Positions 4,802 to 62,137 of a stretch of 64,000 bases of DNA are shown here, in pieces. The notes beneath the pieces are model-generated. The model did not search any database, was not told the DNA's origin, and worked only from the letters and a program-made list of their open reading frames with translations. Both the position numbers and the translations under genes were made by a program. Each line of letters starts with the position of its first letter. Position 1 is the first letter of the stretch. This stretch comes from Candidatus Nomurabacteria bacterium (GTDB lineage: Bacteria; Patescibacteriota; Minisyncoccia; Phycocordibacterales; UBA9973), in the NCBI GenBank assembly GCA_963832025.1, contig CAWHSF010000002.1, positions 17,496-81,495 on the forward strand, given 5' to 3'.

Positions 4802-4849
4802 CTCCAGACGTTGGACGTCTGTAAGCTTACAGACGTCCAACGTCTGGAG
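4802..4849. repeat. Perfect 48-bp palindrome (GACGTTGGACGTC family) between convergent pyrD and glycerate kinase; probable bidirectional terminator
   Basis: CTCCAGACGTTGGACGTCTGTAAGCTTACAGACGTCCAACGTCTGGAG is its own reverse complement. Related copies lie at 5215-5254 and 22893-22934. Confidence 0.9.
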
Positions 4850-4862: not shown

Positions 4863-6164
4863 CTATTTCTTAGTAAGCAATATCATCAAATCCGAAACAT
4901 TAGCGCCGGTCGGACCGGTCATAATCAAATCGCCGGTCTTTTGAAAAAAATTATAGGAATCAAAACGAGTTGCATAATCATTCACATCTAATCCCAATTT
5001 TTCAACTTTCTCTATCGTTTCTTTATCTACCACTGCTCCGGCCATATCACTATTGTCCATGCCATCAGATGCAAAGGAAATAAACACCGAATCATCCCCG
5101 ACTAATTTCATTTTTATGGCTTCTAGTCCCATATGTAAATTCCTGCCTCCCTGTCCCGCATTTTTGGGTACCACAACACTCGGCTCGCCTGCTGCTAGAG
5201 TTACAGAGATTGGACCGACGTTGGACACCTGCTTTAGTAGATGTCCAACGTCGGGAGAATTCGTAAATATTTTTTCGAGCGCTCTATCAACTTCATCATA
5301 AAGTTCTGTAGAAACAATATTTACTTGTAAACCAAGCTCTTCCGATTTCTTCGCCATGGCATTAATCGCAGTGGTATTTGAAACGAGGACGAAGTTGTGA
5401 ACTTTTTCAAAATATTTATCTTCCTTTGGTGTCTCTACTAATTCAAAATTTCCCAAGTTATTTTCTGTAATAATTTTTTGCGCGTCGGTAATAGTTGTAT
5501 TGTCCTTATAAGTTGGACCAGAAGCAACATTCTCAAAAGAATTTCCAGGAATATCGGAAAAAACAAGCCCAATAATCGTTGCAGGATAAGCAACTTTAGC
5601 CAATCCCCCGCCTTTTAGAAGTGATAAATGTTTTCTGACAGTATTCATTTCCGAGATTGTGCCACCCGTTTTCAAGAAGCTATTATACAGGGCAACTCCT
5701 TGTTCACATTCTCTTTCGGGACAGCAAAGTAGTGAAGATCCACCACCAGAGACTAAAACAATAATTAAATCATTTTCCGTAGAATCTTTAATTGTTTCAT
5801 ATATCTTTATTCCAGCTTGAGCGTTTACCTCGGAAGGTCTTGGGTGGGTACCCGCAAAAGTTTCAATGCGTTTGCAATCAACTTTTTCCAAACCCACCAC
5901 AGCCCCAGCTGTAATTTTGTCTCCCAAAATTTTTTCCAACGTGAGCGCCGCCTTGCAGGAAGACTTTCCGAAACCAACAACTTTTATATTTTTAAATTTT
6001 GTTAAATCGAATTGCTCTCCTTTGATACACAAAACTTCTCCTTGCAGAGAAACCGAAGAGCTTATGACTTCTTCCGTGCTGATAGCATCAAGTCCAGCTT
6101 CTATTATTTGCAATGCTAGCTTACGATTTGGAGTTGTCGCCAGTTCATCAAAATTTTTAATCAT
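4863..6164 (-). CDS. Glycerate kinase (MOFRL family; glycerate 2-kinase/hydroxypyruvate reductase-type)
   Basis: 433 aa with motifs GFGKSSCKAA, LVSGGGSSLL, LLKGGGLA, GQGGRN and SDGMDNSDMAGAVVD. Confidence 0.8.
   Translation of the reverse strand: MIKNFDELATTPNRKLALQIIEAGLDAISTEEVISSSVSLQGEVLCIKGEQFDLTKFKNIKVVGFGKSSCKAALTLEKILGDKITAGAVVGLEKVDCKRIETFAGTHPRPSEVNAQAGIKIYETIKDSTENDLIIVLVSGGGSSLLCCPERECEQGVALYNSFLKTGGTISEMNTVRKHLSLLKGGGLAKVAYPATIIGLVFSDIPGNSFENVASGPTYKDNTTITDAQKIITENNLGNFELVETPKEDKYFEKVHNFVLVSNTTAINAMAKKSEELGLQVNIVSTELYDEVDRALEKIFTNSPDVGHLLKQVSNVGPISVTLAAGEPSVVVPKNAGQGGRNLHMGLEAIKMKLVGDDSVFISFASDGMDNSDMAGAVVDKETIEKVEKLGLDVNDYATRFDSYNFFQKTGDLIMTGPTGANVSDLMILLTKK
5215..5254. repeat. 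GACGTTGGAC palindromic element inserted in-frame in glycerate kinase
   Basis: CCGACGTTGGACA-cctgctttagtag-ATGTCCAACGTCGG, followed by GAGAATT as in the 4802 copy. It encodes SPDVGHLLKQVSNVG in the intact ORF. Confidence 0.8.
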
Positions 6165-7864: not shown

Positions 7865-9704
7865 CAGCTCGCATCATTTTTAGGAACACATCTTGTGAGA
7901 TATTTACTTTGCCACGCTCTTTCATCTTCTTTTTTCCTTTTTTCTGTTTCTCGCGAAGTTTCATTTTTCGAGTAATATCCCCGCCATACATGTGTTGAGT
8001 CACATCTTTTTTCATACCACTTTTTGTGCTGGAAGAAATGATGCGTCCAAGGGCGCGACCTTGAATTTTCAAAGTAAACATTTGCCTAGGCAACAAGCTG
8101 TCCAATTTTTCTACGGCTTTTTCTGCTTCGGTTTCAGCTCTTTTTCTAGAGACAACCCTGGAAAAAGCTGGCACAACTTCATCCGCCACAAGTAAATCAA
8201 GTCTGGTCACATCTGCTTTGCGCATTTCTCCAACTTCATAAGAGATGGAAGCGTAGCCGGAAGAAGTGCTTTTAAGTTCGTCGAAGAAATTGCGCATCAG
8301 CTCACGAAGAGGCATTTTGATGGAAATGGTAGAACGGTTATCCCCGAAATTTTCTGTATCCCCCACCTCCCCTTCGTGGTCAAATAAGAGTTGCATAATA
8401 TTACCGACATATTCCACTGGAGTAATAATTTTTAAATTTACCCAAGGTTCAAAAACAGTTTCTATCAATCCATCGTCTGGAAAAAAATAAGGGGAATAAA
8501 TTTTTTCCTTCTTTCCGTTCTTTAACGTTACCTCGTAAGTGATGGATGGAGTGGTGATAACTAAGTCTAAATTAAATTCTCTTTTCAGTCTTTCGGTAAT
8601 AATTTCCAAATGAAGCATTCCTAAAAAGCCACAACGAAAACCGCGCCCCAGCGAACCACTCGATTCTTCTTCGTAAGAAAAAGCCGAATCAGAAAGTTTC
8701 AACTTACCCAAGGAAAGTTTTAATTCGGCAAAATCATCCGCATTCTCCGGAAAAACTGAAGCCCACACCACGGGCAAAGGTTGCATATAACCCGGAAAGG
8801 GCGGCAACGGATTTTTAGACATAGTGATTGTGTCACCGACTGAAGCAATGCCCGGTTTTTTTATACCCGTCACGATATAACCAGTGTCTCCGGCAGAAAG
8901 AAAATCTCTCGGCGTTTCTTCCGGAGAAAAAGTGCCAACTTCGAGAGCGGTAAATTTTTCACCGGAAACGCAAAAAAGCAAATTGTCACCTTTGCCAACT
9001 TTACCGTCAAAAATTCTCACAAAAACTATTACCCCCCGATGGTTGGAATATTTAAAATCAAAAACCAGAGCGCGCAAGTCATTTTCCCCCTCATAGGTTT
9101 CTTGCGGTGCCGGAATACGTTTGATAATTTCTTCTAAAAGGTTCGATACTCCTTCACCCGTACGTCCGGAAACCAACAAAATTTCACTAGGGTCACAATT
9201 TAAAAGTTCAACAACTTCCTCTTTTACTTCAGACACGCGAGCAAGTGGTGAATCAATTTTGGATAACACCGGAATTATTTTTAACCCTCCTGCGCGCGCC
9301 ATAGAGAGTGTCGTAAGGGTTTGCGCTTGTACTCCTTGCGTAGAATCCACAAGCAAAATGGAACCTTCTACAGCTTTTAGAGCGCGAGATACTTCATAAG
9401 AGAAATCTATATGCCCCGGAGTGTCAATGAGATTTAAAACAAATACCTCACCCGGCCTTTGGCCACCCTCTCCTTGCCAAGGAGAGGGGTTGGGGGTGAG
9501 GTCGGATTTGTATTCCATTCTTACGGGTTGCATTTTAATTGTGATTCCTCTCTCGCGCTCAATATCCATGGAATCCAAAACCTGGTCACGCATCTTGCGT
9601 GTCTCAATCGTGTGAGTAATTTCTAGCATTCTGTCAGCCAAGGTACTTTTGCCGTGGTCAATGTGCGCAATAATACTAAAGTTTCTTATATTTTCTAATT
9701 TCAT
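7854..9704 (-). CDS. lepA: Translation elongation factor 4 (LepA)
   Basis: 616 aa with AHIDHGKST and DTPGHIDF GTPase motifs, full-length LepA architecture and a basic C-terminal tail. Confidence 0.93.
   Translation of the reverse strand: MKLENIRNFSIIAHIDHGKSTLADRMLEITHTIETRKMRDQVLDSMDIERERGITIKMQPVRMEYKSDLTPNPSPWQGEGGQRPGEVFVLNLIDTPGHIDFSYEVSRALKAVEGSILLVDSTQGVQAQTLTTLSMARAGGLKIIPVLSKIDSPLARVSEVKEEVVELLNCDPSEILLVSGRTGEGVSNLLEEIIKRIPAPQETYEGENDLRALVFDFKYSNHRGVIVFVRIFDGKVGKGDNLLFCVSGEKFTALEVGTFSPEETPRDFLSAGDTGYIVTGIKKPGIASVGDTITMSKNPLPPFPGYMQPLPVVWASVFPENADDFAELKLSLGKLKLSDSAFSYEEESSGSLGRGFRCGFLGMLHLEIITERLKREFNLDLVITTPSITYEVTLKNGKKEKIYSPYFFPDDGLIETVFEPWVNLKIITPVEYVGNIMQLLFDHEGEVGDTENFGDNRSTISIKMPLRELMRNFFDELKSTSSGYASISYEVGEMRKADVTRLDLLVADEVVPAFSRVVSRKRAETEAEKAVEKLDSLLPRQMFTLKIQGRALGRIISSSTKSGMKKDVTQHMYGGDITRKMKLREKQKKGKKKMKERGKVNISQDVFLKMMRAGEK
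9446..9501. repeat. CCTCACCC...GGGGTGAGG palindromic element inserted in-frame in lepA
   Basis: CCTCACCCGGCCTTTGGCCACCCTCTCCTTGCCAAGGAGAGGGGTTGGGGGTGAGG encodes LTPNPSPWQGEGGQRPGE just before the DTPGH motif. A sibling copy lies at 32011-32077. Confidence 0.85.
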
Positions 9705-15447: not shown

Positions 15448-18426
15448 CTATAGAACGATGTTGATAAGTCTATTTTTTACGTAAATAACTTTCTTAATGT
15501 TCCGACCAGCTGTGTATTTTGAAATAAGTTCGTAAGAAATCGCTTGTTTTTTTATTTCCTCTTCGCTCTCATTGATATCTATTATAATCTCCGCTCTGAC
15601 TTTTCCATTTATCTGAATTATAATTTTTAATTTTTCATCTTGCATTAAACTTTCATCCGCCTGTGGCCAACCGGCAAGGTTGATAGAATTTTTTTGGCCG
15701 AGCATGTTCCATAATTCTTCCGTCACATATGGCGCAAAAGGTGAAAGAATTTGCAAGAATTTTTTATAGTCTTCCAAAGAAACGCTTTCTGCTTTTTCCA
15801 TTTCGGTCGCCAGTATCATCATGGAAGAAATGGCTGTATTAAAATGCATTTCTTCAATGTCCTCGGAAACTTTTTTGATAGTTTTTTGCAAAAGTTTTGA
15901 AACAGAAAAATTCTGAGTTGCTGAGCCTGCATGCTTTTGCGAAGGAGTGGCTGAGCGTAGCGAGGGACCGAGCGACTGAGCAAAAGTATCAGGCGAAGCA
16001 AGTTTCGCTCGGATTCTCCAAACTTTTTCGATAAATCTCCTAGAACCAATAATGCTTTCTGTGGACCAAGCAACCGATTGACTAAATGGCCCCATAAACA
16101 TTTCATACACGCGTAAAGTATCCGCTCCATAAGTTTTTACAATCTCATCCGGATTAATCACATTACCAAGCGATTTGGACATCTTTACTCCCCCTTCACC
16201 CAAGATCATTCCGTGTGAAGTGCGCTTTTTATACGGCTCGGATGTCGGCACCAGTTTTAAATCATATAAAAATTTATGCCAAAAGCGTGAATATAAAAGG
16301 TGAAGTGTGGTGTGTTCATTTCCTCCATTGTACCAATCAACTGGTATCCAATACTTTAAATTTTTCTTGCCTGCAAAAGCTTTTGTATTTTTTGGGTCAG
16401 TGTAGCGAAGATAATACCAGCTTGAACCGGCCCAGTTTGGCATGGTATCCGTTTCCCTCTTGGCAGGGCCTTTGCATTTTGGGCATTTTGTATTCACCCA
16501 TTTGGTAATATTTGCAAGCGGCGATTCTCCTGAATCCGTAGGTTGATAATTTTTTACTTTCGGAAGTTCTACCGGTAGATATTTTTCAGGGACAGGAACA
16601 ATTCCGCATTTCACACAATGTACGACCGGTATCGGCTCTCCCCAATAACGCTGACGAGAAAAAACCCAATCGCGAAGTTTGAAAGTTGTTTTTTCTTTTC
16701 CGCCGACAAATTTAATAATTTCTTTTTTGGCTTGTTCAGAATCTTGTCCATTAAATTTTCCAGAATTAGTCAATATTCCATCTTCGGTATAAATCGGAAA
16801 ATTATTATTTAGTTCATTCCAGGAATATCTCTGACTTAGTGGCAAATTAAATTTTTCTATCTCATTTTTTGAGAGCCAGACTACTTCGTGATTATCTTTT
16901 TCATTTTGCGCAATGTCTTCTTTTTCCCCATCCTGTAATTCAAAATAAAAAACATCGAAATGCGCAAATCTATTTAGATTTTTCGGAATATGGAAAAATT
17001 CACTATGACTTTTACCCAATTGTTTAATTAATTTTGGGCGTAAATAACCTGTTTCTTCTTTAATCTCCATGATTGCTCCTTCCACTGGAGTTTGTCCATT
17101 TTCGGGTCCCCCAGTTATGAAAGTTTCCCAATCAACTTTTTTCCACTTCAACCCAAGATATTTGTCCTCGGACCAATGTTTTACAATTGCCATTATTGCG
17201 TTACGCTCAACAATAGGTAGACTATCTCTTACCGCATCTAGTCCAGAACGCGAAACATAAACCGGTTCAATAACATTTTTTATCTCCAAACCATATTTTT
17301 TTGCAAATTCAAAATCTCTTTCGTCGTGCGCCGGCACTGCCATAATTGCACCTGTGCCATAAGTCGCGAGTACGTAATCTGCAATCCAAACTGGAATTTC
17401 TTCTTTGGTCGCCGGGTTAATAGCCTTGATGCCTTTTAGTTCAACGCCGGTTTTTGTTTTTTCTTCGGCTGTACGTTCAATATCTGTTTTATTTTTTACT
17501 TCTTTTATATATTTTTCAACTTCCGCCCAATTTTTTATTTGATCTTTTAACTTATTAACTAATTGGTGTTCTGGCGCCAATACCAAATATGTCGCTCCAA
17601 AAATTGTATCTGGACGTGTTGTGAAAACTTTAACAGCTGTAGAGCCTGCATGCTTTTGCGAAGGAGTGGCTGAGCGTAGCGAGGGACCGAGCGACTGAGC
17701 AAAAGCATCAGGCGAGACAGCTGTAGAAAATTCAATTTCCGCTCCTTCGGACTTTCCTATCCAGTTTCTTTGCGCCAGTTTTATTTGTGGTAAATAATCC
17801 ACATCATCCAAATCTTTATCCAATCGCTCGGCGTATTTTGTAATGGCGAGCATCCATTGTTCTTTCTCTCGTTTTTCTACTGGAGTGCCACAACGTTCAC
17901 AACACCCAGCGACAACTTCTTCATTAGCTAAACCGGTTTTATCTTTCGGACACCAATTAATTGCGATTTTCGCTTTATATGCCAAACCTTTTTTCAAAAA
18001 CTGTAAAAAAATCCATTGAGTCCATTTGTAGTATTTCGGGTCAGTAGTATTTACTTCCCTGGACCAATCAAAAGAAACTCCCAGAGATTTTATCTGCCGA
18101 CGAAAAGTATCGCTATTTTTTTTGGTAACGACTCGAGGATCAAGACCCGTTTTTATCGCGTAATTTTCTGTCGGCAAGCCAAAAGCGTCCCAGCCGATTG
18201 GATACAAAACATTATACCCTTCCAATCTTCTTTTTCTGGAAATGACATCCATGCCGATGTATGGCCTTGGATGCCCGACGTGCAGTCCATCACCCGAAGG
18301 ATAAGGAAATTCAATCAGACTATAATATTTCGGTTTTTTGGAAAAATCTTTGGCTTTGTATATCTGCTTTTTATCCCAAATATTTTTCCACTTTTTTTCA
18401 ATTTTTAAATGATTATATTCCTTCAC
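15448..18426 (-). CDS. leuS: Leucyl-tRNA synthetase carrying three insertions (two repeat-derived peptides and a Nudix-like domain)
   Basis: 992 aa with HIGH (HVGHPRPY), KMSKS (VKMSKSLGN), CP1 editing motifs TTRPDTIFGATY and AVPAHDERDFEFAKKYG, and RDWVFSRQRYWGEPIP. Confidence 0.93.
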   Translation of the reverse strand: MKEYNHLKIEKKWKNIWDKKQIYKAKDFSKKPKYYSLIEFPYPSGDGLHVGHPRPYIGMDVISRKRRLEGYNVLYPIGWDAFGLPTENYAIKTGLDPRVVTKKNSDTFRRQIKSLGVSFDWSREVNTTDPKYYKWTQWIFLQFLKKGLAYKAKIAINWCPKDKTGLANEEVVAGCCERCGTPVEKREKEQWMLAITKYAERLDKDLDDVDYLPQIKLAQRNWIGKSEGAEIEFSTAVSPDAFAQSLGPSLRSATPSQKHAGSTAVKVFTTRPDTIFGATYLVLAPEHQLVNKLKDQIKNWAEVEKYIKEVKNKTDIERTAEEKTKTGVELKGIKAINPATKEEIPVWIADYVLATYGTGAIMAVPAHDERDFEFAKKYGLEIKNVIEPVYVSRSGLDAVRDSLPIVERNAIMAIVKHWSEDKYLGLKWKKVDWETFITGGPENGQTPVEGAIMEIKEETGYLRPKLIKQLGKSHSEFFHIPKNLNRFAHFDVFYFELQDGEKEDIAQNEKDNHEVVWLSKNEIEKFNLPLSQRYSWNELNNNFPIYTEDGILTNSGKFNGQDSEQAKKEIIKFVGGKEKTTFKLRDWVFSRQRYWGEPIPVVHCVKCGIVPVPEKYLPVELPKVKNYQPTDSGESPLANITKWVNTKCPKCKGPAKRETDTMPNWAGSSWYYLRYTDPKNTKAFAGKKNLKYWIPVDWYNGGNEHTTLHLLYSRFWHKFLYDLKLVPTSEPYKKRTSHGMILGEGGVKMSKSLGNVINPDEIVKTYGADTLRVYEMFMGPFSQSVAWSTESIIGSRRFIEKVWRIRAKLASPDTFAQSLGPSLRSATPSQKHAGSATQNFSVSKLLQKTIKKVSEDIEEMHFNTAISSMMILATEMEKAESVSLEDYKKFLQILSPFAPYVTEELWNMLGQKNSINLAGWPQADESLMQDEKLKIIIQINGKVRAEIIIDINESEEEIKKQAISYELISKYTAGRNIKKVIYVKNRLINIVL
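15923..15996. repeat. 74-bp palindromic element, in-frame copy 1 in leuS (C-terminal region)
   Basis: GAGCCTGCATGCTTTTGCGAAGGAGTGGCTGAGCGTAGCGAGGGACCGAGCGACTGAGCAAAAGTATCAGGCGA. It is 73/74 identical to 17642-17715 and encodes SPDTFAQSLGPSLRSATPSQKHAGS. Confidence 0.92.
16780..17262 (-). other. Nudix-hydrolase-like insertion domain within the LeuRS CP1 editing domain
   Basis: GGPENGQTPVEGAIMEIKEETGY (nt 17046-17114) fits the Nudix box GX5EX7REUXEEXGU except for E->Q and R->M. It lies between the conserved LeuRS motifs FAKKYGLEIKNVIEP and GILTNSGKFNG. Confidence 0.7.
17642..17715. repeat. 74-bp palindromic element, in-frame copy 2 in leuS (entry to CP1 domain)
   Basis: Same sequence as 15923-15996 apart from one transition. 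It encodes SPDAFAQSLGPSLRSATPSQKHAGS between GAEIEF and VKVFTTRPDT. Confidence 0.92.
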
Positions 18427-19415: not shown

Positions 19416-20323
19416 TACTCTATTTTACTCCAAACTGCTGTATTTGCCAACGAAATTAAACGTTTGTTGGATTTTTCTAAAATACAAAGTTCTCCTGCTT
19501 CTACAACCCCTTTAAATTCCTTCATCGTTTCAGAAAGAGCATAACCGAGCGAAAGTGATGAAGAATCAACCGCGTAAGAAGTCAAAATTACAAAAAGTGG
19601 TTTTTCGCTTAAAACTTTTTGCACCGCAAGTAAAAGTTTGGGCAACATATCTTCCAATTTCCAAATTTCGCCTTTCGGCCCTCTCCCAAATTTAGGCGGG
19701 TCCATAATTATCGCATCATATTTATTTCCTCTCTTCGCTTCTCTTTCCATAAATTTTAAGACATCGTCTTCAATAATTCTTAAAGGTAAATTTTCTAGAC
19801 CGGAAATTTTCTGATTTTCTTTTAACCAATTCAAGGTTTGTTTTGATGCATCTACATGTGTCACTTCCGCACCAGCACGAAGCGCAAAAAGGCTCGCAAC
19901 TCCAGTGTAGCCAAATAAATTCAAAACCTTATGCGGACGAAAATGCGAAGAATTCTTCGCATTTTCGTCCGCCAACCTTTCCTCTATGAAATCCCAATGG
20001 CTTGCCTGCTCCGGAAAAAATCCCAAATGCCGAAATGGCGTCGGCATTGCCAAAAATTTTATTCCTTTGTATTCCATTTCCCATTTATCTGTAATCTTTT
20101 TTTCAAATTTCCAACCGGCTTTCGCACCAATTTTAGAACTCCAAAATTTTCCGTCCGCTTTCGCCCACCCCTCCTCTCTCAAAGTTTTTTGCCAAACCGC
20201 ATCTTCGTACGGACGCACAAAAAGATATTTACCGAATCGCTCCAGCTTTTCCCCTTCGCCGGTGTCTAAAAGCTCATAGTCCAACCAATCCTTTGAATAA
20301 AAAATTTTAATTTGATTTTCCAT
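19415..20323 (-). CDS. Class I SAM-dependent methyltransferase (RlmI/RlmK-like)
   Basis: 302 aa with SAM-binding LNLFGYTGVASLFALRAGAEVTHVD and DAIIMDPPKFG. Confidence 0.75.
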   Translation of the reverse strand: MENQIKIFYSKDWLDYELLDTGEGEKLERFGKYLFVRPYEDAVWQKTLREEGWAKADGKFWSSKIGAKAGWKFEKKITDKWEMEYKGIKFLAMPTPFRHLGFFPEQASHWDFIEERLADENAKNSSHFRPHKVLNLFGYTGVASLFALRAGAEVTHVDASKQTLNWLKENQKISGLENLPLRIIEDDVLKFMEREAKRGNKYDAIIMDPPKFGRGPKGEIWKLEDMLPKLLLAVQKVLSEKPLFVILTSYAVDSSSLSLGYALSETMKEFKGVVEAGELCILEKSNKRLISLANTAVWSKIE

Positions 20324-22671: not shown

Positions 22672-24177
22672 TTACTCATCCAGAATTTCAAAATCACTTC
22701 CATCTTCTTTTGGAGCAACCTTTTTCCGACGGATGAAATACACGGCATAAGCAGAAGCTCCAATAAGAACAAAAGAGGTAATAAAAATTAATATCTTTCG
22801 CAGAGAGAAACTTGGGGTTGGATTATTGGAATTTTCAACATCATTTTGCAAGGCTTTAGCAGTTAGGCTGTTTACGGCAGGAATATCCATCCCAGACGTT
22901 GGACGTCTAGAAGCTTCCAGACGTCCAACGTCTGTAGGTTTATCCACAGTAGCAGTCATAATTGGGACAGTTGGTGGAGATAAGTAATCAAAAATTATAT
23001 TCCCTTGTGAGTCACTTAATTTTAAAGTATTTTCATCTGCGATGGAGAAATTTGTAATTTTTGGAGAAAGTGTAATCTTATCTTTTGAAGCCACTATTGT
23101 ATTTTTCGGAAAAACAAAACTTTTTTGTGTGCTGGATAAAATCCAACCGGAAATATCTGCACTGTAAGATGTGTTGTTGGTAAGTTCGACAAAAAAATCT
23201 CTACTGTCGCCGACATTGGAGATAGAAATATCTGCAGGAATTATTTTTACATCAATTTGATCGGTTGCATCGGGAATAAGATTCCCGGAATAATAATTTT
23301 CATAATAATCGAGAGAGACAACATAATCTCCCGTATAATAAAATGTGTGAGAAAAAGTTTTGCTATTGGTTAAATCAATTTCCTTTGAGTCTCCGTCACC
23401 AAAATTCCAAAAGTATTTTCCGAAAAATATTTTTTCTCCACCATATCCAGTTGTCGTAGCGTTGAAAGAAACGGGAATGCCAACAAAGTTAATTACTTGT
23501 CCTATGATTTTAGTTTTAATATTTGGTGACTCTGCCTGATTTTGACTCGTTGTGGCAGAAGTGACCGTGGGAGAAGAGCTATTATTTACAACGTTATTTG
23601 CCGGCAAACCACCTCCGACGACTGCATCTGAAGAGGTAGAAGAAACAACCGTATTTGCTGAAACATTTGCGACCCCTGGAGTCGGCGTAGCCCCCACCCA
23701 AGAACCATTTATTAGTTGTAAAGAATTCCCATCACCGGCTCCGCCCTCACTCGAAGTATAAGTTACAGAATCTACGACATTGCCATCTTGGTCTAAAATT
23801 TTTAATGTCGCACCGTTATTGTTTAAACTTGTGATACCTGTGTCATAGACTGTGCCGGAAAAATTTGGATTGTCCGCTAAAAAAGTATCTTTATCTCCGG
23901 CAAAAACAACATAGCTGTTTGCAGGAATAGAAAAATCTGTTTCATCATTTATCGTTCTGTTGGCAGAGCCGTCATAAATTCTCCACTTCGAAGCATCGAC
24001 AGAAACGGCACTTCCGTCAGGATTGTAAACTTCAACCCACTCTCCACTTTTACTATTTGTGGAATCCGACCCAGACAAATCGTACATGATTTCATCAATT
24101 GAAAGGCTCGCAAAAACCAAGTGATAAGAAAAAAAGAAAATAACACCAGCAAAAACTAAAATAAGTTTTTTAGACAT
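22672..24177 (-). CDS. Surface protein: signal peptide, lamin-tail domain, PKD-like domain, second LTD, C-terminal TM anchor
   Basis: LTD-like region SIDEIMYDLSGSDS...EWVEVYN...NNNGATLKILD, PKD-like YFWNFGDGDS...TGDYVVSL, second LTD FFVELTNNTS...GWIL...LKLSDSQGNI, and C-terminal helix ILIFITSFVLIGASAYAVYFI. Confidence 0.75.
   Translation of the reverse strand: MSKKLILVFAGVIFFFSYHLVFASLSIDEIMYDLSGSDSTNSKSGEWVEVYNPDGSAVSVDASKWRIYDGSANRTINDETDFSIPANSYVVFAGDKDTFLADNPNFSGTVYDTGITSLNNNGATLKILDQDGNVVDSVTYTSSEGGAGDGNSLQLINGSWVGATPTPGVANVSANTVVSSTSSDAVVGGGLPANNVVNNSSSPTVTSATTSQNQAESPNIKTKIIGQVINFVGIPVSFNATTTGYGGEKIFFGKYFWNFGDGDSKEIDLTNSKTFSHTFYYTGDYVVSLDYYENYYSGNLIPDATDQIDVKIIPADISISNVGDSRDFFVELTNNTSYSADISGWILSSTQKSFVFPKNTIVASKDKITLSPKITNFSIADENTLKLSDSQGNIIFDYLSPPTVPIMTATVDKPTDVGRLEASRRPTSGMDIPAVNSLTAKALQNDVENSNNPTPSFSLRKILIFITSFVLIGASAYAVYFIRRKKVAPKEDGSDFEILDE
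22893..22934. repeat. GACGTTGGACGTC palindromic element inserted in-frame in the LTD surface protein
   Basis: CAGACGTTGGACGTCT-agAAGCTTcc-AGACGTCCAACGTCTG encodes TDVGRLEASRRPTSG. It shares its arms and the central AAGCTT with 4802-4849. Confidence 0.88.
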
Positions 24178-32010: not shown

Positions 32011-32077
32011 CCTCACCCCGCCCTTCGACAAACTCAGGGCATCCCTCTCCTTGGCAAGAAGAGAGGCTGGGGTGAGG
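32011..32077. repeat. CCTCACCCC...GGGGTGAGG palindromic element, intergenic copy upstream of dnaE
   Basis: CCTCACCCCGCCCTTCGACAAACTCAGGGCATCCCTCTCCTTGGCAAGAAGAGAGGCTGGGGTGAGG shares its termini and the CCCTCTCCTTG core with the lepA copy. Confidence 0.85.
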
Positions 32078-56654: not shown

Positions 56655-56701
56655 TGACTTCGAACACAGTAAGTCTTTAGGCTCGAATGAGATGTTCAAA
56701 T
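56655..56701 (+). repeat. Divergent copy (R7) of the intergenic repeat family
   Basis: GACTTCGAACACAG...GCTCGAATGAGATGTTCAAAT. Its 3' part matches the R3 tail GACTCGAATGAGATGTTCGAAT. Confidence 0.6.
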
Positions 56702-56706
56702 TGTTT

Positions 56707-57090
56707 TCATCTTTCAACACTCAAGGCCTCTTGAATATCTTCTGGAAAATCAGACATTTCTTGTATCTGACGAATATCGACTACCCCATCTTGAAATGGG
56801 ATTTGCTTAGCCCAAGCAATTGCATCTTCTTTTGTTTCTACTTTGATAATCCAGTAACCGGCAACTAATTCTTCAGGGTTTGGAAATGGACCGTCAGTAA
56901 CCGTGGGTTCATTGTTGGAAAATAAAATTCTCGCTCCTTCAGAACTAGGGTGTAAACCATCAAGTGCAATCAAAACACCTGCATCTTGAAGTTTTTTATT
57001 ATATTTTTCCATCACAACAAACATCTCTTTGTCGGGCAAAGCACCTTTTTCAATCTCTTTGTTACTCTTTACAAACATTATGAATTTCAT
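56707..57090 (-). CDS. YciI/DGPF-family protein
   Basis: 127 aa with DGPFPNPEELVAGYWIIKVETKEDAIAWAKQIP, typical of the YCII-related domain. Confidence 0.75.
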   Translation of the reverse strand: MKFIMFVKSNKEIEKGALPDKEMFVVMEKYNKKLQDAGVLIALDGLHPSSEGARILFSNNEPTVTDGPFPNPEELVAGYWIIKVETKEDAIAWAKQIPFQDGVVDIRQIQEMSDFPEDIQEALSVER

Positions 57091-57103
57091 GAGTTTAATT
57101 AAA

Positions 57104-57544
57104 TTAAATTATAAAGCTAAACACCAAAACAATTACCAAAAATGTCACTAAATTTGATAGCGAATCAGAGAAAAATTTCTTCCATCTTAATTTTTGATCA
57201 ATGTTTCCCCAAAGCAAAGATTGCCCAATTATTGGAACAACAAAACAAAGCCAGACGGCAAACACTTCCCCATAAATAATTGCAGAGCCAAAAGTTTTTT
57301 GTTCTATCATTATAAAAGCTATAAAAGCGGATGTCAGAAACGAAAGAAACATCTGTGCTAAATAATATTTCCACATTTTTGGTTTCATTTCTTTCATTTT
57401 CAAATCTTGCTCTTCCTTGGAAAATTTAGAAAAACCAGTGGACTCTAAATGAACTTTCCCCATCGGAGTTTTCATCGAATACCAAAGTGACCCGATCACA
57501 GCACTGATAATAGCACCCAAAATTCCAAGTAAAATTATTGTCAT
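57104..57544 (-). CDS. DUF1761-like membrane protein
   Basis: 146 aa with four TM helices and N-terminus ILGAIISAVIGSLWYS. Confidence 0.6.
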   Translation of the reverse strand: MTIILLGILGAIISAVIGSLWYSMKTPMGKVHLESTGFSKFSKEEQDLKMKEMKPKMWKYYLAQMFLSFLTSAFIAFIMIEQKTFGSAIIYGEVFAVWLCFVVPIIGQSLLWGNIDQKLRWKKFFSDSLSNLVTFLVIVLVFSFII

Positions 57545-57620
57545 GAATTTATCTATTGTTTTTAAATCTTATAATGGATAAATTATAATATCTTTAGATA
57601 CTTTTGACTAGTACTCGCTG

Positions 57621-57703
57621 GCTCTAAACCTGCTTTGCTCTTCCAAAGTTTTAACGAAGGAGAGGGAGAGTTTACGCTGAGCTAGCTGAAGTGATGTTCG
57701 AAT
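57621..57703 (+). repeat. 83-bp intergenic repeat R1 (long form)
   Basis: GCTCTAAACCTGCTTTGCTCTTCCAAAGTTTTAACGAAGGAGAGGGAGAGTTTACGCTGAGCTAGCTGAAGTGATGTTCGAAT is 79/83 identical to R2. Confidence 0.92.
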
Positions 57704-57735
57704 TAGTTTACTTGATGAGAAGTCTTGATGAAGAA

Positions 57736-58668
57736 TTATAATTCATGCTGTTTTTTAAAGATAAACAGCTTATATAATAAAAAGAGGGCTGGTAAAAGAA
57801 TAATCATTCCGACAGCAAAACTCCATTCAATTAAAGTGAGAGATGTACTATTGGTAATGCTCGAAACAAGTGTAGTAGTCGGATAAACAATATAAGGTAA
57901 ATGCGCAATAAATAATCCCCAAAAAAACGTAGCCATGCATGCACACAAAAAAACAAAACTCCATGCATAGGCATCGACTACTTCTGTGATTAAAACTGCC
58001 GCAATGCAAAAAAGCATAATGCCTGCTATCCATGCCTCTATATTATTATTTACAAAAAGATACGGCAGGTCACGAGCGATAGTAATTAAAAAAAACGTTG
58101 CAGATAGAAAGAATAAGGTACCACTTAAACGTAAGAATTTTGTGAGTCTCACGTTTTTTTTGTAAACTCTAAAAAATGCAAGGGTCATAGTAGCAATATA
58201 GGCAATGGTGCTGAAAGAAAGCCAAAAATAAAGGGAGGTCTTAATATATAAGACCCAAGAACCAGTAAAAAAATATAAGAAAATTAGGGCGAAAAGGATT
58301 GGTACGATAAAACTGGTGAGAAAATAAATAACATCAATGGTCTTTGATTTTACATCACTGTATTGCTTAAATAAAATACAAATAATGCGCACAGAAAAAA
58401 TAATTAAAGTGGTAAATGTAATAGTGAACAAATCGGTACCCCATCTAGATGTTGCGCCAGGAAAACATGCAAACATCGAAGTTAGGGAAAAAACTAAAAA
58501 CACACTTGTTGTCTCCCATATCGGATTTAAATATTCGCGTATCGTATCTTTTTCAGGCAGTAAATTCGGGAAAACAGCAAAAATCGAAGACCCAAATTCA
58601 ATTGAAGAAAAAATAAAATATATAAAAAGAGAAGAAGCAGTTACAAAAAAAGCTATATTTTCTTTCAT
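57736..58668 (-). CDS. cydB: Cytochrome bd-type oxidase subunit II
   Basis: 310-aa polytopic protein translationally coupled (4-nt overlap) to the subunit I gene. Confidence 0.75.
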   Translation of the reverse strand: MKENIAFFVTASSLFIYFIFSSIEFGSSIFAVFPNLLPEKDTIREYLNPIWETTSVFLVFSLTSMFACFPGATSRWGTDLFTITFTTLIIFSVRIICILFKQYSDVKSKTIDVIYFLTSFIVPILFALIFLYFFTGSWVLYIKTSLYFWLSFSTIAYIATMTLAFFRVYKKNVRLTKFLRLSGTLFFLSATFFLITIARDLPYLFVNNNIEAWIAGIMLFCIAAVLITEVVDAYAWSFVFLCACMATFFWGLFIAHLPYIVYPTTTLVSSITNSTSLTLIEWSFAVGMIILLPALFLLYKLFIFKKQHEL

Positions 58669-60065
58669 ATATCAGATTTATCATTAATAAAGTATTCTGT
58701 ATCTAAATCTAGCTTTGTACGATTATAGTGACGAATCAAAATCCATGGAGTCAGAATAAGAAGAATCGTATAGATGCTTGGGAAAATAGAGCCGAACTCA
58801 ATCACTGTTTTAGAAGTCGTAAACGCTTGTGAGACGGTCATAATTCCCCGTATCACATAGGGCTGACGTCCCACTTCTGTTACTATCCAACCAAATTCCA
58901 TTGCAAGAAAAGAAGCTGCCCCGCTTAAGACTATAAGACCGAGTATTATGTGCGAGAAAGCATGTTTTCTTTTCCAAAAAAATAAAATAAAAAATAAAGT
59001 CACCACAAAAGCAATATACATGCCGAAGAAAACCATAAGGTCAAACATCGCATGAATCCAGAGTGGCGGCCAGGTATTTGGATTAAATGAATCAAGACCT
59101 CGTACCACCGCCGTTTCCCGACCAAAAGAAAGAAAACTCAAAAGTCTTGGTATTTGAATTGCATCTTCAAGGTGGCCGTTTCTTTCTATTCCTCCAATTT
59201 CCATTGGTGCGCCAGCTTGCGTGTGCTCCGCGATCTCGGCAGCGGCAAATTTAAGTGGTTCATTATTTGCAATGTATCGGGCAGATTGATCGCCAGTAAC
59301 AGTCATCAGTAAAGCGAAAACCGTGCCAATGACCATTGTGTACACAAGCGCCTTTTTGCGATAAGTTCTCAGTTTTTCGTGTTCCCTTTCGTCAGGAATA
59401 ATATTTTTTTTCTTTAGTAAATGTTTCGTTCTGTGCTTGTGGAAACCTAGACTCCACGCATAGATACCTGCAAAAACGAGCGCAGTGGTTAAATAATAAG
59501 AGACAATAGAGTGTGTCGTTTCAGTATACGTTGCCTTATTGAACATCGCAGCGATAGGATTGATATTTGAGGCTACTCCATTTGTATACATAAAACCAGC
59601 TGGGCTGTTCATCCACGCATTTGCGGTGGTAATAAAGAAGGCAGAAGCAAGTGAACCCAGCACGATAGGTAGCGAGCAAAGCCAATGTGTATATTTATTT
59701 TTAAAACGATCCCAAGAATATAAGTAAATTCCGAGAAATATTGCCTCAATAAAAAAAGCAAAACCCTCCATGTAAAATGGAAGTCCGATAACCCTGCCGG
59801 CAAGCGCCATAAAATTTGGCCAAAGCATACTGAGTTGATTGGAAATGATCATGCCAGAAACAGCTCCTACTACAAAAAGTGTACCCATAGCAAAACTCCA
59901 CCGTCTGGCCATAGTATAAAAATCATTGTCTTTTTTAAAAATACCGATAAGCTCTGCGAGCGAAATAAGCAAAGGAATACCCACTCCAAAAAGCGCAAAT
60001 AAAATATGAAATCCAAGAGAATCTCCCATGAAAACACGACCGGCTGAAAGTGAATTTCCATTCAT
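58665..60065 (-). CDS. cydA: Cytochrome bd-type ubiquinol oxidase subunit I
   Basis: 466 aa with GWIVTEVGRQPYVI and N-terminal FHILFALFGVG, typical of CydA. Confidence 0.85.
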   Translation of the reverse strand: MNGNSLSAGRVFMGDSLGFHILFALFGVGIPLLISLAELIGIFKKDNDFYTMARRWSFAMGTLFVVGAVSGMIISNQLSMLWPNFMALAGRVIGLPFYMEGFAFFIEAIFLGIYLYSWDRFKNKYTHWLCSLPIVLGSLASAFFITTANAWMNSPAGFMYTNGVASNINPIAAMFNKATYTETTHSIVSYYLTTALVFAGIYAWSLGFHKHRTKHLLKKKNIIPDEREHEKLRTYRKKALVYTMVIGTVFALLMTVTGDQSARYIANNEPLKFAAAEIAEHTQAGAPMEIGGIERNGHLEDAIQIPRLLSFLSFGRETAVVRGLDSFNPNTWPPLWIHAMFDLMVFFGMYIAFVVTLFFILFFWKRKHAFSHIILGLIVLSGAASFLAMEFGWIVTEVGRQPYVIRGIMTVSQAFTTSKTVIEFGSIFPSIYTILLILTPWILIRHYNRTKLDLDTEYFINDKSDI

Positions 60066-60142
60066 CTGAAAATTATATCACAAAGATATAGAAAAGCTGG
60101 CTGTTATATTTAGCTCTTGCTTCATTTTAAGTAAAAAGCTTT

Positions 60143-60225
60143 GCTCCGAACCTGCTTTGCTCTTCCGAAGTTTTAACGAAGGAGAGGGAGAGTTTACGCT
60201 GAGCTAGCCGAAGTGATGTTCGAAT
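60143..60225 (+). repeat. 83-bp intergenic repeat R2 (long form)
   Basis: GCTCCGAACCTGCTTTGCTCTTCCGAAGTTTTAACGAAGGAGAGGGAGAGTTTACGCTGAGCTAGCCGAAGTGATGTTCGAAT. Confidence 0.92.
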
Positions 60226-60243
60226 AGCAATAACTAAAAACGA

Positions 60244-60519
60244 CTAGAATATACCTGGCCCATCTCCATCTAAATACCACTTTCCTTCTATATTAACTAT
60301 TTTTATAGTCTGACCAGACGAAGTCTTACATATACCATAGGTATCAGTTTTTTCCAGCAACTGAACACAGCCCCTAAAAGCGTAGTAGTTTTCAAAAGTG
60401 CTGTGTACCTCGCGCAGATAAAACCACTGACTTATTGCAAGTCCTATTACTATTCCTGCGATAAAAGCTAATATCCGTGCCCATAAACATTTTTTCAAAG
60501 TCATTCTAATTGTTTCCAT
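60244..60519 (-). CDS. Hypothetical membrane-anchored small protein
   Basis: 91 aa with one TM helix (ILAFIAGIVIGLAISQWF) and a small soluble domain containing two Cys. Confidence 0.5.
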   Translation of the reverse strand: METIRMTLKKCLWARILAFIAGIVIGLAISQWFYLREVHSTFENYYAFRGCVQLLEKTDTYGICKTSSGQTIKIVNIEGKWYLDGDGPGIF

Positions 60520-60651
60520 ATGCTAAAAGCATATCACAAGTTCGAACTTCTACTAAGTTAGAAAAAATAACCGTTGAAAATTATGGTTTATTTTGATACT
60601 CGTTCGAGAGAGTTTAATGGAAAGACCGGCTTAATTTGTTATAATACTGAA

Positions 60652-61104
60652 ATGATGAATCCTATGATTTTTCTTTTAATAAACACAGCCCTAGGGTTTT
60701 ACAACGTAGGCACAATTTGGGCAATGGAAGTTGATATTTTTCGATCTTGGAAATTAGTTGGTCTAGAAAATTTTCGTAATATTCAAGAAGTTCATTGGAG
60801 GAAACTTCCCTATTGGATTTTTACACCTGTTTGTCTAGCTTTAATTGGTTCTATTATTCTTTTTTGGTATCACCCCCAAGGTTCACCCATCTGGGCAATC
60901 TGGGGAGTTTTTCTTTCTCAATTTTTATCTTTGGTGCTTACTGGAATTTTCTGGGGTCAATGGCAAGCCAAGCTAAGTAAAGATCCTCTCGGACCACAAA
61001 GTATATATCTTACTAAAATACTCAAAACCCATTGGGTGAGAACTTTACTAATTAATCTTTCCGCTATAATTTTGATTATTTGGATAATTCAATTGATGCA
61101 TTAA
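60652..61104 (+). CDS. Hypothetical four-TM membrane protein
   Basis: MMNPMIFLLINTALGFYNVGTIWAMEVD.... I prefer ATG 60652, which lies 6 nt after a TGTTATAAT box and may be leaderless. Confidence 0.5.
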   Translation: MMNPMIFLLINTALGFYNVGTIWAMEVDIFRSWKLVGLENFRNIQEVHWRKLPYWIFTPVCLALIGSIILFWYHPQGSPIWAIWGVFLSQFLSLVLTGIFWGQWQAKLSKDPLGPQSIYLTKILKTHWVRTLLINLSAIILIIWIIQLMH

Positions 61105-61106
61105 TT

Positions 61107-61124
61107 CTGGGAGGATGTTCGAAT
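61107..61124 (+). repeat. Truncated copy (R6) of the intergenic repeat (3' end only)
   Basis: CTGGGAGGATGTTCGAAT is identical to the 3' 18 nt of R5 and starts 3 nt after the stop codon. Confidence 0.7.
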
Positions 61125-61182
61125 GGTAATCACTCAACAATATATTAAAAAAGTTAATTTTAACATTATATCTACGTCATTG

Positions 61183-61210
61183 ATTGACAAAGTTTTAAAA
61201 AACTGTATAT
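61183..61210 (+). promoter_or_regulatory. Sigma70-like promoter of the higher-GC orphan gene
   Basis: TTGACA-16 nt-TATATT lies about 75 nt upstream of ATG 61287. Confidence 0.5.
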
Positions 61211-61286
61211 TGCAAGAATTACGTCGTCGAGGGTATTCCATCCTTCAGATGACTTAATTGTCCTTTACGGACACAAGGAGATTTTG

Positions 61287-62131: not shown

Positions 62132-62137
62132 CATTTT

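What the first reader, a model, noticed from the sequence alone, without database searches (positions are those of the whole stretch)
15923..17715. Same 74-bp palindromic element inserted twice, in-frame, in leuS (RPE-like behaviour)
Seen in sequence:
- Positions 15923-15996 and 17642-17715 are 73/74 identical.
- The sequence is GAGCCTGCATGCTTTTGCGAAGGAGTGGCTGAGCGTAGCGAGGGACCGAGCGACTGAGCAAAAG[T/C]ATCAGGCGA.
- Its termini are inverted (GCCTGCATGCTTTTGC / GCAAAAGCATCAGGC).
- Both copies are GC-rich islands in an AT-rich gene.
- Both are read in the same frame as SPD[A/T]FAQSLGPSLRSATPSQKHAGS.
- One copy lies at the junction into the CP1 domain (between GAEIEF and VKVFTTRPDT). The other lies in the variable loop after IEKVWRIRAKL.
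- The ORF stays open through both.

Established analogy: Rickettsia palindromic elements insert in-frame into protein genes.

The element also shares modules with the intergenic R family at 55-64 kb (CTGCTTTGC, CGAAGGAG, GCTGAGC(G)TAGC). This suggests one evolving superfamily of selfish repeats that can colonise essential genes.
Basis: partly seen in the sequence, partly recalled or inferred. Interest (0 to 1): 0.7.

Follow-up and report, generated by a model that had tools for sequence, protein, structure and literature searches.

The report
In-frame hairpin elements colonising leuS
Two near-identical copies of a small hairpin-forming repeat sit in frame inside the essential leucyl-tRNA synthetase gene of an uncultured Nomurabacteria-type bacterium; the same repeat occurs in at least 13 other genes in related genomes, giving a second, richer example of the "selfish DNA inside protein genes" so far known mainly from Rickettsia.

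Summary
Window 15923-15996 and 17642-17715 are 73/74 identical. Both lie in frame in leuS (15448-18426, minus strand), and each adds a ~25-28 aa peptide.

The repeat ("E1a") is a family. I found 30 distinct copies in Nomurabacteria/Paceibacteria genomes and metagenomes:
- About 27 are in frame in long ORFs: LeuRS at two sites, IleRS, PheT, CCA-adding enzyme, Tgt, MnmA, TsaD, Dus, an RlmI-like methyltransferase, PurH, XerC/D, UvrA and an FAD oxidase.
- Three are probably intergenic.

Its anatomy is a ~20-bp stem whose sequence differs between copies but co-varies, closing a 39-nt loop that is almost invariant, even at synonymous positions.

The two LeuRS sites are insertion hot spots. Among 95 relatives they vary from 7-38 and 10-56 aa and hold at least 12 different palindromic families. 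E1a is distributed patchily on the LeuRS tree. AlphaFold predicts both peptides to be the only disordered segments of the enzyme.

The Rickettsia-palindromic-element analogy is therefore supported as a way of working. Membership in that family is not. The proposed link to the "R family" at 55-64 kb is not supported.

How the element moves is unknown: there is no consistent target duplication and no transposase in the window. One lead: at the same LeuRS site in a relative, a DUF559 endonuclease cassette is bounded by 31-nt inverted repeats, and in another relative those two repeats abut directly as a hairpin.

The parts
15448..18426 (-). leuS host gene, 992 aa. It is a class Ia LeuRS with a NUDIX domain inside the CP1 editing region.
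   Evidence: ORF listing. Pfam hits tRNA-synt_1, tRNA-synt_1_2, Anticodon_1 and NUDIX. 100% match to P0001 and 8000 homologues.
15918..16001 (-). E1a copy at LeuRS site 2 (aa ~810-837, the loop between helices 792-809 and 835-858). The whole hairpin including the outer stem TTGCT/AGCAA is 84 nt, or 28 codons.
   Evidence: The covariance model scores 107.1 bits. The same element sits at the same site in L001, L002, L003 and L044. pLDDT is below 50 for aa 812-838.
15941..15979 (-). The 39-nt conserved loop of the site-2 copy. On the coding strand it reads T CAGTCGCTCGGTCCCTCGCTACGCTCAGCCAC TCCTTC.
   Evidence: Nearly invariant across 30 copies, including 10 of 11 third-codon positions left free in the search pattern.
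17633..17724 (-). E1a copy at LeuRS site 1 (aa ~238-264, in the beta-strand link from the catalytic core into the CP1 editing domain). The hairpin includes the outer stem ACAGCTGT/ACAGCTGT.
   Evidence: The covariance model scores 105.8 bits. pLDDT is below 50 for aa 239-261. Among genomes examined, an intact E1a at this site is unique to the window. Relatives hold other palindromes there (E2 in L002, E3 in L005, the diverged E1b in L004), and L003 holds no insert.
17660..17698 (-). The 39-nt conserved loop of the site-1 copy. It is identical to that of the site-2 copy.
17633..17643 (.). Left copy of the 11-nt direct repeat ACAGCTGTAGA that flanks the site-1 element. The right copy is at 17717-17727. 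It could be a target-site duplication, but its core is itself a palindrome and also serves as the outer stem.
   Evidence: Read directly. No comparable repeat flanks the other 29 copies.
17717..17727 (.). Right copy of the 11-nt direct repeat ACAGCTGTAGA.

Best explanation
The two repeats are copies of a short, non-autonomous, hairpin-forming mobile DNA element (here called E1a). It is one of many palindromic element families in Nomurabacteria/Paceibacteria (candidate phyla radiation) genomes that settle in frame inside protein genes.

Anatomy. The element is 74-92 nt. A ~20-bp stem closes a 39-nt loop. The loop sequence is the conserved part. The stem is kept as a structure but not as a sequence.

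How it persists (inferred). Insertions survive only where the protein tolerates an extra loop and only in a reading frame that is stop-free and harmless. The element is then translated as a ~25-28 aa Ser/Pro/Gly-rich disordered peptide, ASPDAFAQSLGPSLRSATPSQKHAGSA. The two LeuRS positions are such permissive loops, and different palindromes colonise them again and again.

History in this genome. The site-2 copy predates the split from the closest relative found (82% identical LeuRS). The site-1 copy is a recent duplication within this genome, with one mismatch in 74.

Shown: the repeat, the family, in-frame occupancy of many genes in both orientations, hot spots, patchy distribution, stem covariation, loop invariance, and predicted disorder of the peptides.

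Inferred: translation through the element; selection on frame; and movement by a DNA-hairpin-dependent route (single-strand insertion or templated copying at hairpin-prone sites), driven by a factor encoded elsewhere in the genome. My confidence in that last step is low. The confidence figure below is for 'mobile in-frame palindromic element', not for the route of movement.
For: 1. Family. The core pattern finds 10 loci in species-representative genomes, all Nomurabacteria/Paceibacterota or so-labelled Saccharibacteria MAGs. A scan with third codon positions left free finds 27 metagenome loci. Together these give 30 distinct copies.

2. In frame in many genes. Host ORFs are LeuRS, IleRS, PheT, CCA-adding enzyme, Tgt, MnmA, TsaD, Dus, an RlmI-like methyltransferase, PurH, XerC/D, UvrA and an FAD oxidase. 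Three copies are probably intergenic.

3. Both orientations and three frames are used. One copy, in the RlmI-like gene of L002, has the frame's TGA changed to TGC. So it is the DNA that is shared, not the peptide.

4. Frame filter. Three frames of the consensus are stop-free. ASPDAF... is used at 12 independent host sites. PRLMLLLSRSVPRY..., on the same strand, is used at none.

5. Hot spots and turnover. In 95 LeuRS relatives, site 1 spans 7-38 aa and site 2 spans 10-56 aa, with at least 12 recurring peptide families, several at both sites or in other genes. The DNA at these sites in other genomes is other palindromes. E1a at site 2 occurs in four separate clades whose sisters have short site-2 loops with no element peptide.

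6. The RlmI-like site that holds E1a in L002 holds a different, perfect 40-nt palindrome in the window.

7. Structure. 17 of 19 stem pairs show changes on both sides. 83% of cells are paired, against 66% in shuffles and 33-48% with slid partners. The outer arms of one copy pair at -16.5 kcal/mol, against -8.1 for arms taken from different copies, p=3e-13.

8. Tolerance. In the AlphaFold model (mean pLDDT 83.7) the only segments below 50 are aa 239-261 and 812-838. T. thermophilus LeuRS lacks the site-1 insert.

9. Recency of the site-1 copy. It differs at 1 of 74 positions from the site-2 copy, while the closest relative has a different palindrome at site 1.
Against: - No mobilising enzyme was found. 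None of 30 large window ORFs is a transposase, HUH or DUF559 protein. Only 64 kb of the genome was visible.
- There is no consistent target-site duplication and no conserved target motif.
- Copy number is very low for a mobile repeat: 1-2 exact-core copies per MAG, and no further intact copy in 328 kb of flanking loci.
- A purely selfish model does not easily explain loop conservation. The loop is 90-100% identical between copies at the same site in genomes whose flanking coding DNA is only 67-87% identical, while the arms are 42-96% identical. Part of this is ascertainment, because copies were found through a loop pattern.
- Nine or ten of the 14 host genes are tRNA- or rRNA-handling enzymes. 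That is more than random insertion would predict. By my estimate such genes make up about 7.5% of coding length, judged from the window's gene content.
- Translation of the element has not been observed.
Confidence: 0.8

Rival explanations
1. The hairpin is a functional nucleic-acid motif kept by the host, not a parasite. For example, it could be an RNA structure inside the mRNAs of tRNA-handling enzymes that binds a common factor or is processed, or a DNA hairpin site. The peptide would then be a by-product.
For: - Loop invariance extends to synonymous positions: 10 of 11 free third positions are fixed, and only the CTN codon varies.
- The loop is also kept when it is read in other frames.
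- The stem co-varies strongly.
- Copies at the same MnmA, Tgt, IleRS and CCA-enzyme positions in genomes with 67-87% flank identity keep 90-100% loop identity, while their arms have diverged with compensation.
- Hosts are enriched for tRNA/rRNA enzymes: 9-10 of 14.
Against: - There is no consistent gene set. Each MAG has 1-2 copies, in different genes. The window's HisRS and other genes have none.
- E1a is patchy on the LeuRS tree, with sisters that have short site-2 loops and no element peptide.
- The same sites hold unrelated palindromes in sister genomes.
- Both orientations occur at the same CCA-enzyme site.
- Diverged sub-lineages E1b and E1c exist.
- No Rfam family matches, and no similarity to the tRNAs found in the loci.
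- The loop identity is partly an artefact of finding copies through a loop pattern.
- Stem compensation can arise without selection. Template switching within quasi-palindromes during replication is a mutational mechanism established in E. coli; I state this from my own knowledge and did not test it here.
Confidence: 0.12
2. The short hairpins are collapsed end-pairs of longer in-frame elements that carry an endonuclease gene between the two arms, a miniature-versus-autonomous relationship. E1a would be mobilised, or its hot spots cut, by such an endonuclease encoded elsewhere. This is a proposal about the route of movement and is compatible with the best explanation.
For: - At LeuRS site 1, five relatives carry a DUF559 (Vsr-like nuclease fold) domain in frame.
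- In L047 this ~420-nt cassette is bounded by 31-nt inverted repeats, 29/31 identical.
- In L048 the same two termini abut directly as a 48-nt hairpin at the same site.
- Palindromes encoding the same peptide motif (PSPxQGEG) occur in the window: in frame in lepA, and upstream of dnaE.
Against: - The link is shown for another family (E6), not for E1a.
- No protein in the set has E1-type arms around a cargo.
- No DUF559 was detected in the window or in the other loci.
- The direction of the relationship is not resolved. The cassette may instead have landed in a pre-existing hairpin.
- Nuclease activity of this domain is untested.
Confidence: 0.2
3. The two copies are simply an internal duplication or gene conversion within leuS, or ancestral LeuRS sequence, with no mobility beyond this gene.
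For: The two copies are in one gene, 1.7 kb apart, in the same orientation and frame, and nearly identical. Gene conversion from site 2 to site 1 cannot be told apart from transposition for this one event.
Against: The same 39-nt loop occurs in at least 13 other genes and in 3 intergenic places. LeuRS from T. thermophilus, and many close relatives, lack it.
Confidence: 0.02
4. Assembly artefact: a repeat collapsed or inserted wrongly by the assembler.
For: The window comes from a metagenome-assembled contig. An intact E1a at site 1 is seen only in this assembly.
Against: Both copies keep the reading frame of an essential gene and have unique flanks. The site-2 copy is present in four independent assemblies from other samples. 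A diverged E1b copy sits at site 1 in L004. The repeat is shorter than a typical sequencing read (my inference). Read coverage could not be checked.
Confidence: 0.01

Closest known systems
Rickettsia palindromic elements (RPE; Ogata et al. 2000, as summarised in PMC10969869)
   Same: Short palindromic repeats in a small, AT-rich genome. They are inserted in frame into unrelated, often essential, protein genes, are read as an extra peptide that appears compatible with the fold, and come in several families. No transposase is known for them (that last point is from my own knowledge).
   Different: - The host phylum is unrelated, and no sequence relationship was tested.
- E1a is about half the size: 74-92 nt, against ~150 bp given for RPEs in PMC10969869.
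- Copy number per genome is far lower: 1-2 per MAG, against 44 in R. conorii.
- The conserved part is a 39-nt loop while the stem varies and co-varies.
- The same two loops of one enzyme are reused by at least 12 families.
[quoted passage not shown]
   Same: Small, without an ORF of their own, with inverted termini and able to fold. They can create in-frame fusions.
   Different: No consistent target-site duplication. The terminal repeats are not the conserved part. No parent insertion sequence with the same ends was found for E1a. One was found only for the unrelated E6 hairpin.
GC clusters of yeast mitochondrial DNA and the related 'byp' elements (from my own knowledge; not checked in the paper library)
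   Same: GC-rich palindromic mobile clusters in an AT-rich genome. They can sit inside coding sequence and are optional between strains.
   Different: Byp elements are skipped by the ribosome and need not be open. Here every in-gene copy is open and a multiple of three in length, so read-through is expected. The host is a bacterium.
REP/BIME repeats with RAYT transposases, and hairpin-end derivatives of IS200/IS605 (from my own knowledge)
   Same: Hairpin-forming repeats handled as single-stranded DNA, with no target duplication and recognition of shape rather than stem sequence. This is the kind of machinery that would fit a variable stem with a conserved unpaired part.
   Different: Those repeats are extragenic and abundant. 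No Y1/HUH transposase was seen here, and the rest of the genome could not be searched.

Membership tests
Rickettsia palindromic elements (RPE) | Repeated palindromic element present in many unrelated genes and intergenic regions | tested here: met
   30 distinct copies in at least 14 host genes plus 3 intergenic places, spread across genomes. Only 2 copies are in this window.
Rickettsia palindromic elements (RPE) | Inserted in frame and read as part of the host protein, at positions compatible with the fold | tested here: met
   All in-gene copies keep long ORFs open. Both LeuRS peptides are the only segments with pLDDT below 50. Translation itself is inferred, not observed.
Rickettsia palindromic elements (RPE) | Sequence homology to RPE consensus sequences, and occurrence in Rickettsia | not tested
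   No RPE sequences were available in the tools. The hosts here are Nomurabacteria/Paceibacterota, so common descent is unlikely. I file it as 'works like an RPE', not as a member.
Rickettsia palindromic elements (RPE) | Size around 100-150 bp | tested here: not met
   The element is 74-92 nt. The RPE size is taken from PMC10969869.
MITE | Terminal inverted repeats conserved among copies | tested here: not met
   The termini are inverted within each copy but differ between copies: arm identity is 42-96%, against 90-100% for the loop.
MITE | Target-site duplication of fixed length | tested here: not met
   Only the window's site-1 copy has a long direct repeat (11 nt). The other copies have 0-6 nt with no pattern.
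MITE | A related autonomous element with the same ends | tested here: inconclusive
   None was found for E1a in 124 proteins or in about 400 kb of loci. One was found for a different hairpin family at the same LeuRS site. Whole genomes could not be searched.
REP/RAYT or IS200/IS605-derived hairpin repeats | A cognate Y1/HUH transposase in the genome | not testable with these tools
   None among 30 window ORFs. Only 64 kb of the 87-kb contig was visible, and the rest of the genome not at all.
REP/RAYT or IS200/IS605-derived hairpin repeats | Extragenic location | tested here: not met
   About 27 of 30 copies are inside ORFs.
Known structured RNA families (Rfam 15) | Match to a curated covariance model | tested here: not met
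   The best hit has E=0.79 and 15.5 bits against a gathering score of 45. No tRNA or tmRNA in the window.
Intron, intein or translational-bypass element | Removed from the RNA or protein, or skipped by the ribosome, so no need to be open and in frame | tested here: not met
   Every in-gene copy is stop-free and a multiple of three in the host frame. One copy has its stop codon mutated away. At 25-28 aa it is too short for an intein, and no ribozyme family matches.

The most novel reading that the evidence does not exclude
Nomurabacteria carry a previously undescribed system of in-frame mobile hairpins. The hairpin tip is the active part: either a conserved loop recognised by a dedicated factor, or the landing site or remnant of an endonuclease cassette such as the inverted-repeat-bounded DUF559 module seen at the same LeuRS site. 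A handful of surface loops in translation enzymes serve as shared docking sites. Under this reading the 39-nt E1a loop is kept by selection, on the element or on the host, rather than by recency. These hairpins would then be a route by which whole domains (NUDIX, hydrolase, nuclease) get built into essential enzymes.
Probability: 0.2. Interest if true: 0.85.

Novelty: new variant of a known kind. Interest (0 to 1): 0.66.

Why it matters
In-frame selfish palindromes have been a curiosity tied almost entirely to Rickettsia for 25 years, and how they move is still unknown. This window shows the same behaviour in an unrelated, very large group of uncultured bacteria for which thousands of genomes are available.

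Several features of this system make the question approachable by comparison:
- Defined hot-spot loops are reused by many families.
- Filled and unfilled alleles occur in sister genomes.
- Copies occur in both orientations at one site.
- For one family there is a long form with an endonuclease-like gene between the same ends.

It also matters in practice. These inserts inflate and diversify essential enzymes such as LeuRS, IleRS and MnmA, and they will confuse alignments, trees and domain annotation of candidate-phyla-radiation proteins.

I found no paper describing this in the searchable library. That is weak evidence of absence.

Tried and rejected
- Peptide-based searches to list host proteins failed. 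A concatenation of four frame peptides gave only 4 candidates. The 30-aa window peptide against 1.84 billion representatives gave 3 weak hits. Short queries are beyond these tools.
- Rfam: no family.
- A tRNA-derived origin or tRNA mimicry. I suspected a resemblance of the antisense loop to the 5' half of long-arm tRNAs. No alignment to the 11 tRNAs found in the loci beat shuffles. No Ser or Leu tRNA was available, so this is not fully excluded.
- The link to the R family at 55-64 kb: rejected.
- Phage or plasmid carriage: no match in viral contigs, GenBank phages or PLSDB plasmids.
- Target-site duplication: looked for in all copies and not general.
- A transposase or nuclease in the window: none.
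- E1-type arms around a larger cargo: none among 124 proteins.
- Naming the organism through the protein cluster: no name or accession returned.
- Intron, intein or ribosomal bypass: considered and rejected, because all copies are open and in frame.


Full report
**1.

A search for the 74-mer with up to three mismatches finds two matches in the window, 15923-15996 (exact) and 17642-17715 (one mismatch). None is expected by chance. Repeat finding extends the similarity to 81 nt (D4).

Both copies lie in the 992-aa ORF 15448-18426 on the minus strand. Pfam identifies it as a leucyl-tRNA synthetase with a NUDIX domain inside the editing region. Both are read in the same frame as SPD[A/T]FAQSLGPSLRSATPSQKHAGS, at aa 238-264 and 811-837.

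The termini are inverted. With their flanks the copies fold into hairpins of 84 and 92 nt. Element GC is 0.55 in a region of 0.37-0.40.

The copy at 17642-17715 is also flanked by an 11-nt direct repeat, ACAGCTGTAGA.

**2. The repeat is a family spread over related genomes**

The window's LeuRS has thousands of homologues. The closest are from Candidatus Nomurabacteria/Paceibacterota.

In an alignment of 21 of them, both positions are hypervariable. The same peptide appears at the second site in P0002, P0006 and P0010.

A scan of one genome per species for the core GCTGAGCGNAGCGAGGGACCGAGCG gave 10 loci, all in this group of uncultured bacteria.

A metagenome scan used a pattern with every third codon position of the peptide frame left free. 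It gave 27 loci.

After removing duplicates there are 30 distinct copies. About 27 lie in frame in long ORFs:
- LeuRS site 2 (four genomes) and site 1 (the window)
- IleRS (three)
- CCA-adding enzyme (four, one inverted)
- Tgt (three)
- MnmA (four)
- PurH (two)
- TsaD, Dus, PheT, UvrA and an FAD oxidase (one each)
- An RlmI-like methyltransferase and XerC/D (one each, both inverted)

Three copies are probably intergenic.

In IleRS the insert sits just before TTTPWTLPGN. From my knowledge of class Ia synthetases, this is the same junction into the editing domain as LeuRS site 1.

**3. Anatomy: conserved loop, variable but paired stem**

In the free-third-position scan, ten of the eleven free positions turned out invariant. 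Only the CTN leucine codon varies, and it takes all four bases. The sequence is also kept when it is read in other frames or on the other strand. Conservation is therefore at the nucleotide level, not the peptide level.

The ungapped alignment of 30 copies shows a nearly invariant block. It consists of a 39-nt loop and a short inner stem, GCTTTTGC/GCAAAAGC. It is flanked by arms that differ between copies.

The arms pair:
- 17 of 19 stem pairs show changes on both sides.
- 83% of cells are paired, against 66% in shuffles and 33-48% when partners are slid.
- The outer arms of one copy bind at -16.5 kcal/mol, against -8.1 for arms from different copies, p=3e-13.

Between copies at the same site in different genomes:
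- The loop is 90-100% identical.
- The flanking host DNA is 67-87% identical.
- The arms are 42-96% identical.

Part of the loop figure is ascertainment, since copies were found through the loop.

Diverged sub-lineages exist:
- E1b is at LeuRS site 1 in L004 and at site 2 in L046.
- E1c is at both sites in L045.
- They have the same arm type but a different loop.
- E1b repeats the pattern of a shared loop with compensated arms; the two E1c loops are only about 80% alike.

No Rfam family matches.

**4. The two LeuRS positions are hot spots**

In 95 relatives, site 1 ranges from 7 to 38 aa and site 2 from 10 to 56 aa. At least 12 recurring peptide families occupy them. Several are found at both sites or in other genes.

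At the DNA level these inserts are palindromes of other families:
- L002 has the E2 palindrome at site 1. The same family occurs three times in the window.
- L005 has a third palindrome at both sites.
- L004 has a further hairpin at site 2.
- L003 has no insert at site 1.

On a neighbour-joining tree built with both sites masked, E1a at site 2 falls in four separate clades. Their sisters (P0026, P0031, P0073) have short site-2 loops with no element peptide.

The RlmI-like site that holds E1a in L002 holds a perfect 40-nt palindrome in the window.

The window itself has at least seven in-frame palindromic inserts.

**5. The inserts look tolerated**

The AlphaFold model of the window's LeuRS is good (mean pLDDT 83.7). 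Its only segments below 50 are aa 239-261 and 812-838, which are exactly the two element peptides. One lies between two strands and the other between two helices.

T. thermophilus LeuRS has six residues where the window has 32 at site 1. Site 2 is a variable loop in all solved LeuRS structures.

Three frames of the consensus are stop-free. The hydrophilic ASPDAF... frame is used at 12 independent host sites. The equally open PRLMLLLSRSVPRY... frame on the same strand is used at none. The antisense PSLHAFAKEWLS... frame is used at two. This points to a filter on the peptide.

**6. History in this genome**

The closest relative (L002, 82% identical protein) shares the site-2 copy but has E2 at site 1. 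The window's site-1 copy differs from its site-2 copy at one base.

So site 2 was occupied before the two lineages split. Site 1 was filled later by duplication within the genome. For this single event, transposition and gene conversion cannot be told apart.

**7. What is not explained**

- There is no consistent target duplication and no target motif.
- There is no transposase or nuclease among 30 window ORFs.
- The element is not found in viral contigs, phage records or plasmids.
- Copy number is very low: 1-2 per MAG, and no extra intact copy in 328 kb of loci.
- The combination of an invariant loop and a fast-changing stem is the reverse of a classical miniature transposon.
- Nine or ten of the 14 host genes handle tRNA or rRNA, against roughly 7.5% of coding length by my estimate.

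These points keep a functional-motif reading alive at about 0.12. Against it stand several observations. The gene set is inconsistent between genomes. The distribution is patchy. Both orientations occur at one site. Unrelated palindromes occupy the same loops.

Stem compensation need not mean selection. Template switching in quasi-palindromes is a known mutational route to it (my own knowledge; not tested here).

**8. A lead on how the elements move**

At LeuRS site 1, other relatives carry whole domains in frame: DUF559 (Vsr-like nuclease fold), an alpha/beta hydrolase, or a second NUDIX.

In L047 the DUF559 cassette is bounded by 31-nt inverted repeats, 29/31 identical. In L048 the same two termini abut directly as a 48-nt hairpin at the same site.

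This is the relation of a miniature element to its long form. It is shown for another family (E6), and palindromes encoding the same PSPxQGEG peptide motif also occur in the window. No such partner was found for E1a.

**9. Comparison and verdict**

The element works like a Rickettsia palindromic element. It is a palindromic repeat inserted in frame in unrelated genes. It is read as a tolerated peptide. It belongs to one of several families (RPE facts from PMC10969869).

It is not shown to be a member of that family. It is half the size, from an unrelated phylum, and organised differently.

It fails two defining tests for a miniature inverted-repeat element: conserved ends and a target duplication.

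The claimed kinship with the R family at 55-64 kb is not supported.

I rate it a new variant of a known kind, of fairly high interest. The system offers many genomes, defined hot spots and a candidate long form, which could make the old question of how such elements enter genes answerable.

Noticed in passing
window 16843-17133 (minus strand; LeuRS aa 432-528): A NUDIX hydrolase domain is inserted in the CP1 editing region of LeuRS (Pfam E=3.7e-11). Nearly all of the 120 closest homologues carry it, so it is a clade-wide trait. Some relatives carry a second NUDIX at site 1.
   Followed up: partly
L047:3626-4106 (LeuRS site 1 of P0030) and L048 (LeuRS site 1 of P0112): An in-frame DUF559 (Vsr-like nuclease fold) cassette of about 420 nt is bounded by 31-nt inverted repeats, ACCCCTCCCTAACCCTCCCCGAAGGAGAGGG. 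In L048 the same two termini abut as a 48-nt hairpin at the same site. This looks like a long-form/short-form pair of an in-frame mobile element. The DUF559 module itself carries a nested palindromic insert (SFSPAIPGGEGEN).
   Followed up: partly
LeuRS site 1 in P0057, P0102, P0054, P0027, P0034, P0032 (alignment A4): The same loop that holds the 74-nt element in the window holds whole extra domains in relatives: an alpha/beta hydrolase, DUF559, or a second NUDIX. In P0057 PSPALPEGEG-type hairpin peptides flank and separate the modules.
   Followed up: no
window 4802-4849, 5215-5254, 22893-22934: A second palindrome family (E2, CAGACGTTGGACGTCT...) has three copies in the window. Two are in frame: in a glycerate-kinase-like gene (aa 304-317) and in a lamin-tail-domain protein (aa 415-429, TDVGRLEASRRPTSG). 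The same family and peptide occupy LeuRS site 1 in L002.
   Followed up: partly
window 19933-19972 (minus strand, RlmI-like methyltransferase aa 118-131): A perfect 40-nt palindrome, GCGGACGAAAATGCGAAGAA|TTCTTCGCATTTTCGTCCGC, lies in frame at exactly the site where the L002 orthologue carries an inverted E1a copy. L001 and L004 hold yet other inserts there. L004's FHGSHSNLNVVNE peptide also occurs at LeuRS sites 1 and 2 in other genomes.
   Followed up: partly
window 9461-9495 (lepA aa 70-82), 8887-8927 (lepA aa 260-273), 32038-32072 (upstream of dnaE): There are two in-frame palindromic inserts in lepA. The first (TPNPSPWQGEGGQ) shares its peptide motif with LeuRS site-1 inserts in P0090 and P0074. 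It also resembles the hairpin at the left end of the DUF559 cassette. A related copy lies in the intergenic region before dnaE.
   Followed up: partly
window 56659-62261 (the 'R family': 57621-57703, 60143-60225, 62157-62239, 61794-61839): These intergenic direct repeats of 46-83 nt lie around the cytochrome bd oxidase genes. By covariance-model search and alignment tests they are unrelated to the leuS element. What they are was not studied.
   Followed up: partly
host genes of the 30 E1a copies (loci L001-L043): Nine or ten of the 14 host genes are tRNA- or rRNA-handling enzymes: LeuRS, IleRS, PheT, CCA-adding enzyme, Tgt, MnmA, TsaD, Dus and RlmI. Other palindrome families in the window do not show this bias. 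It is unexplained.
   Followed up: partly
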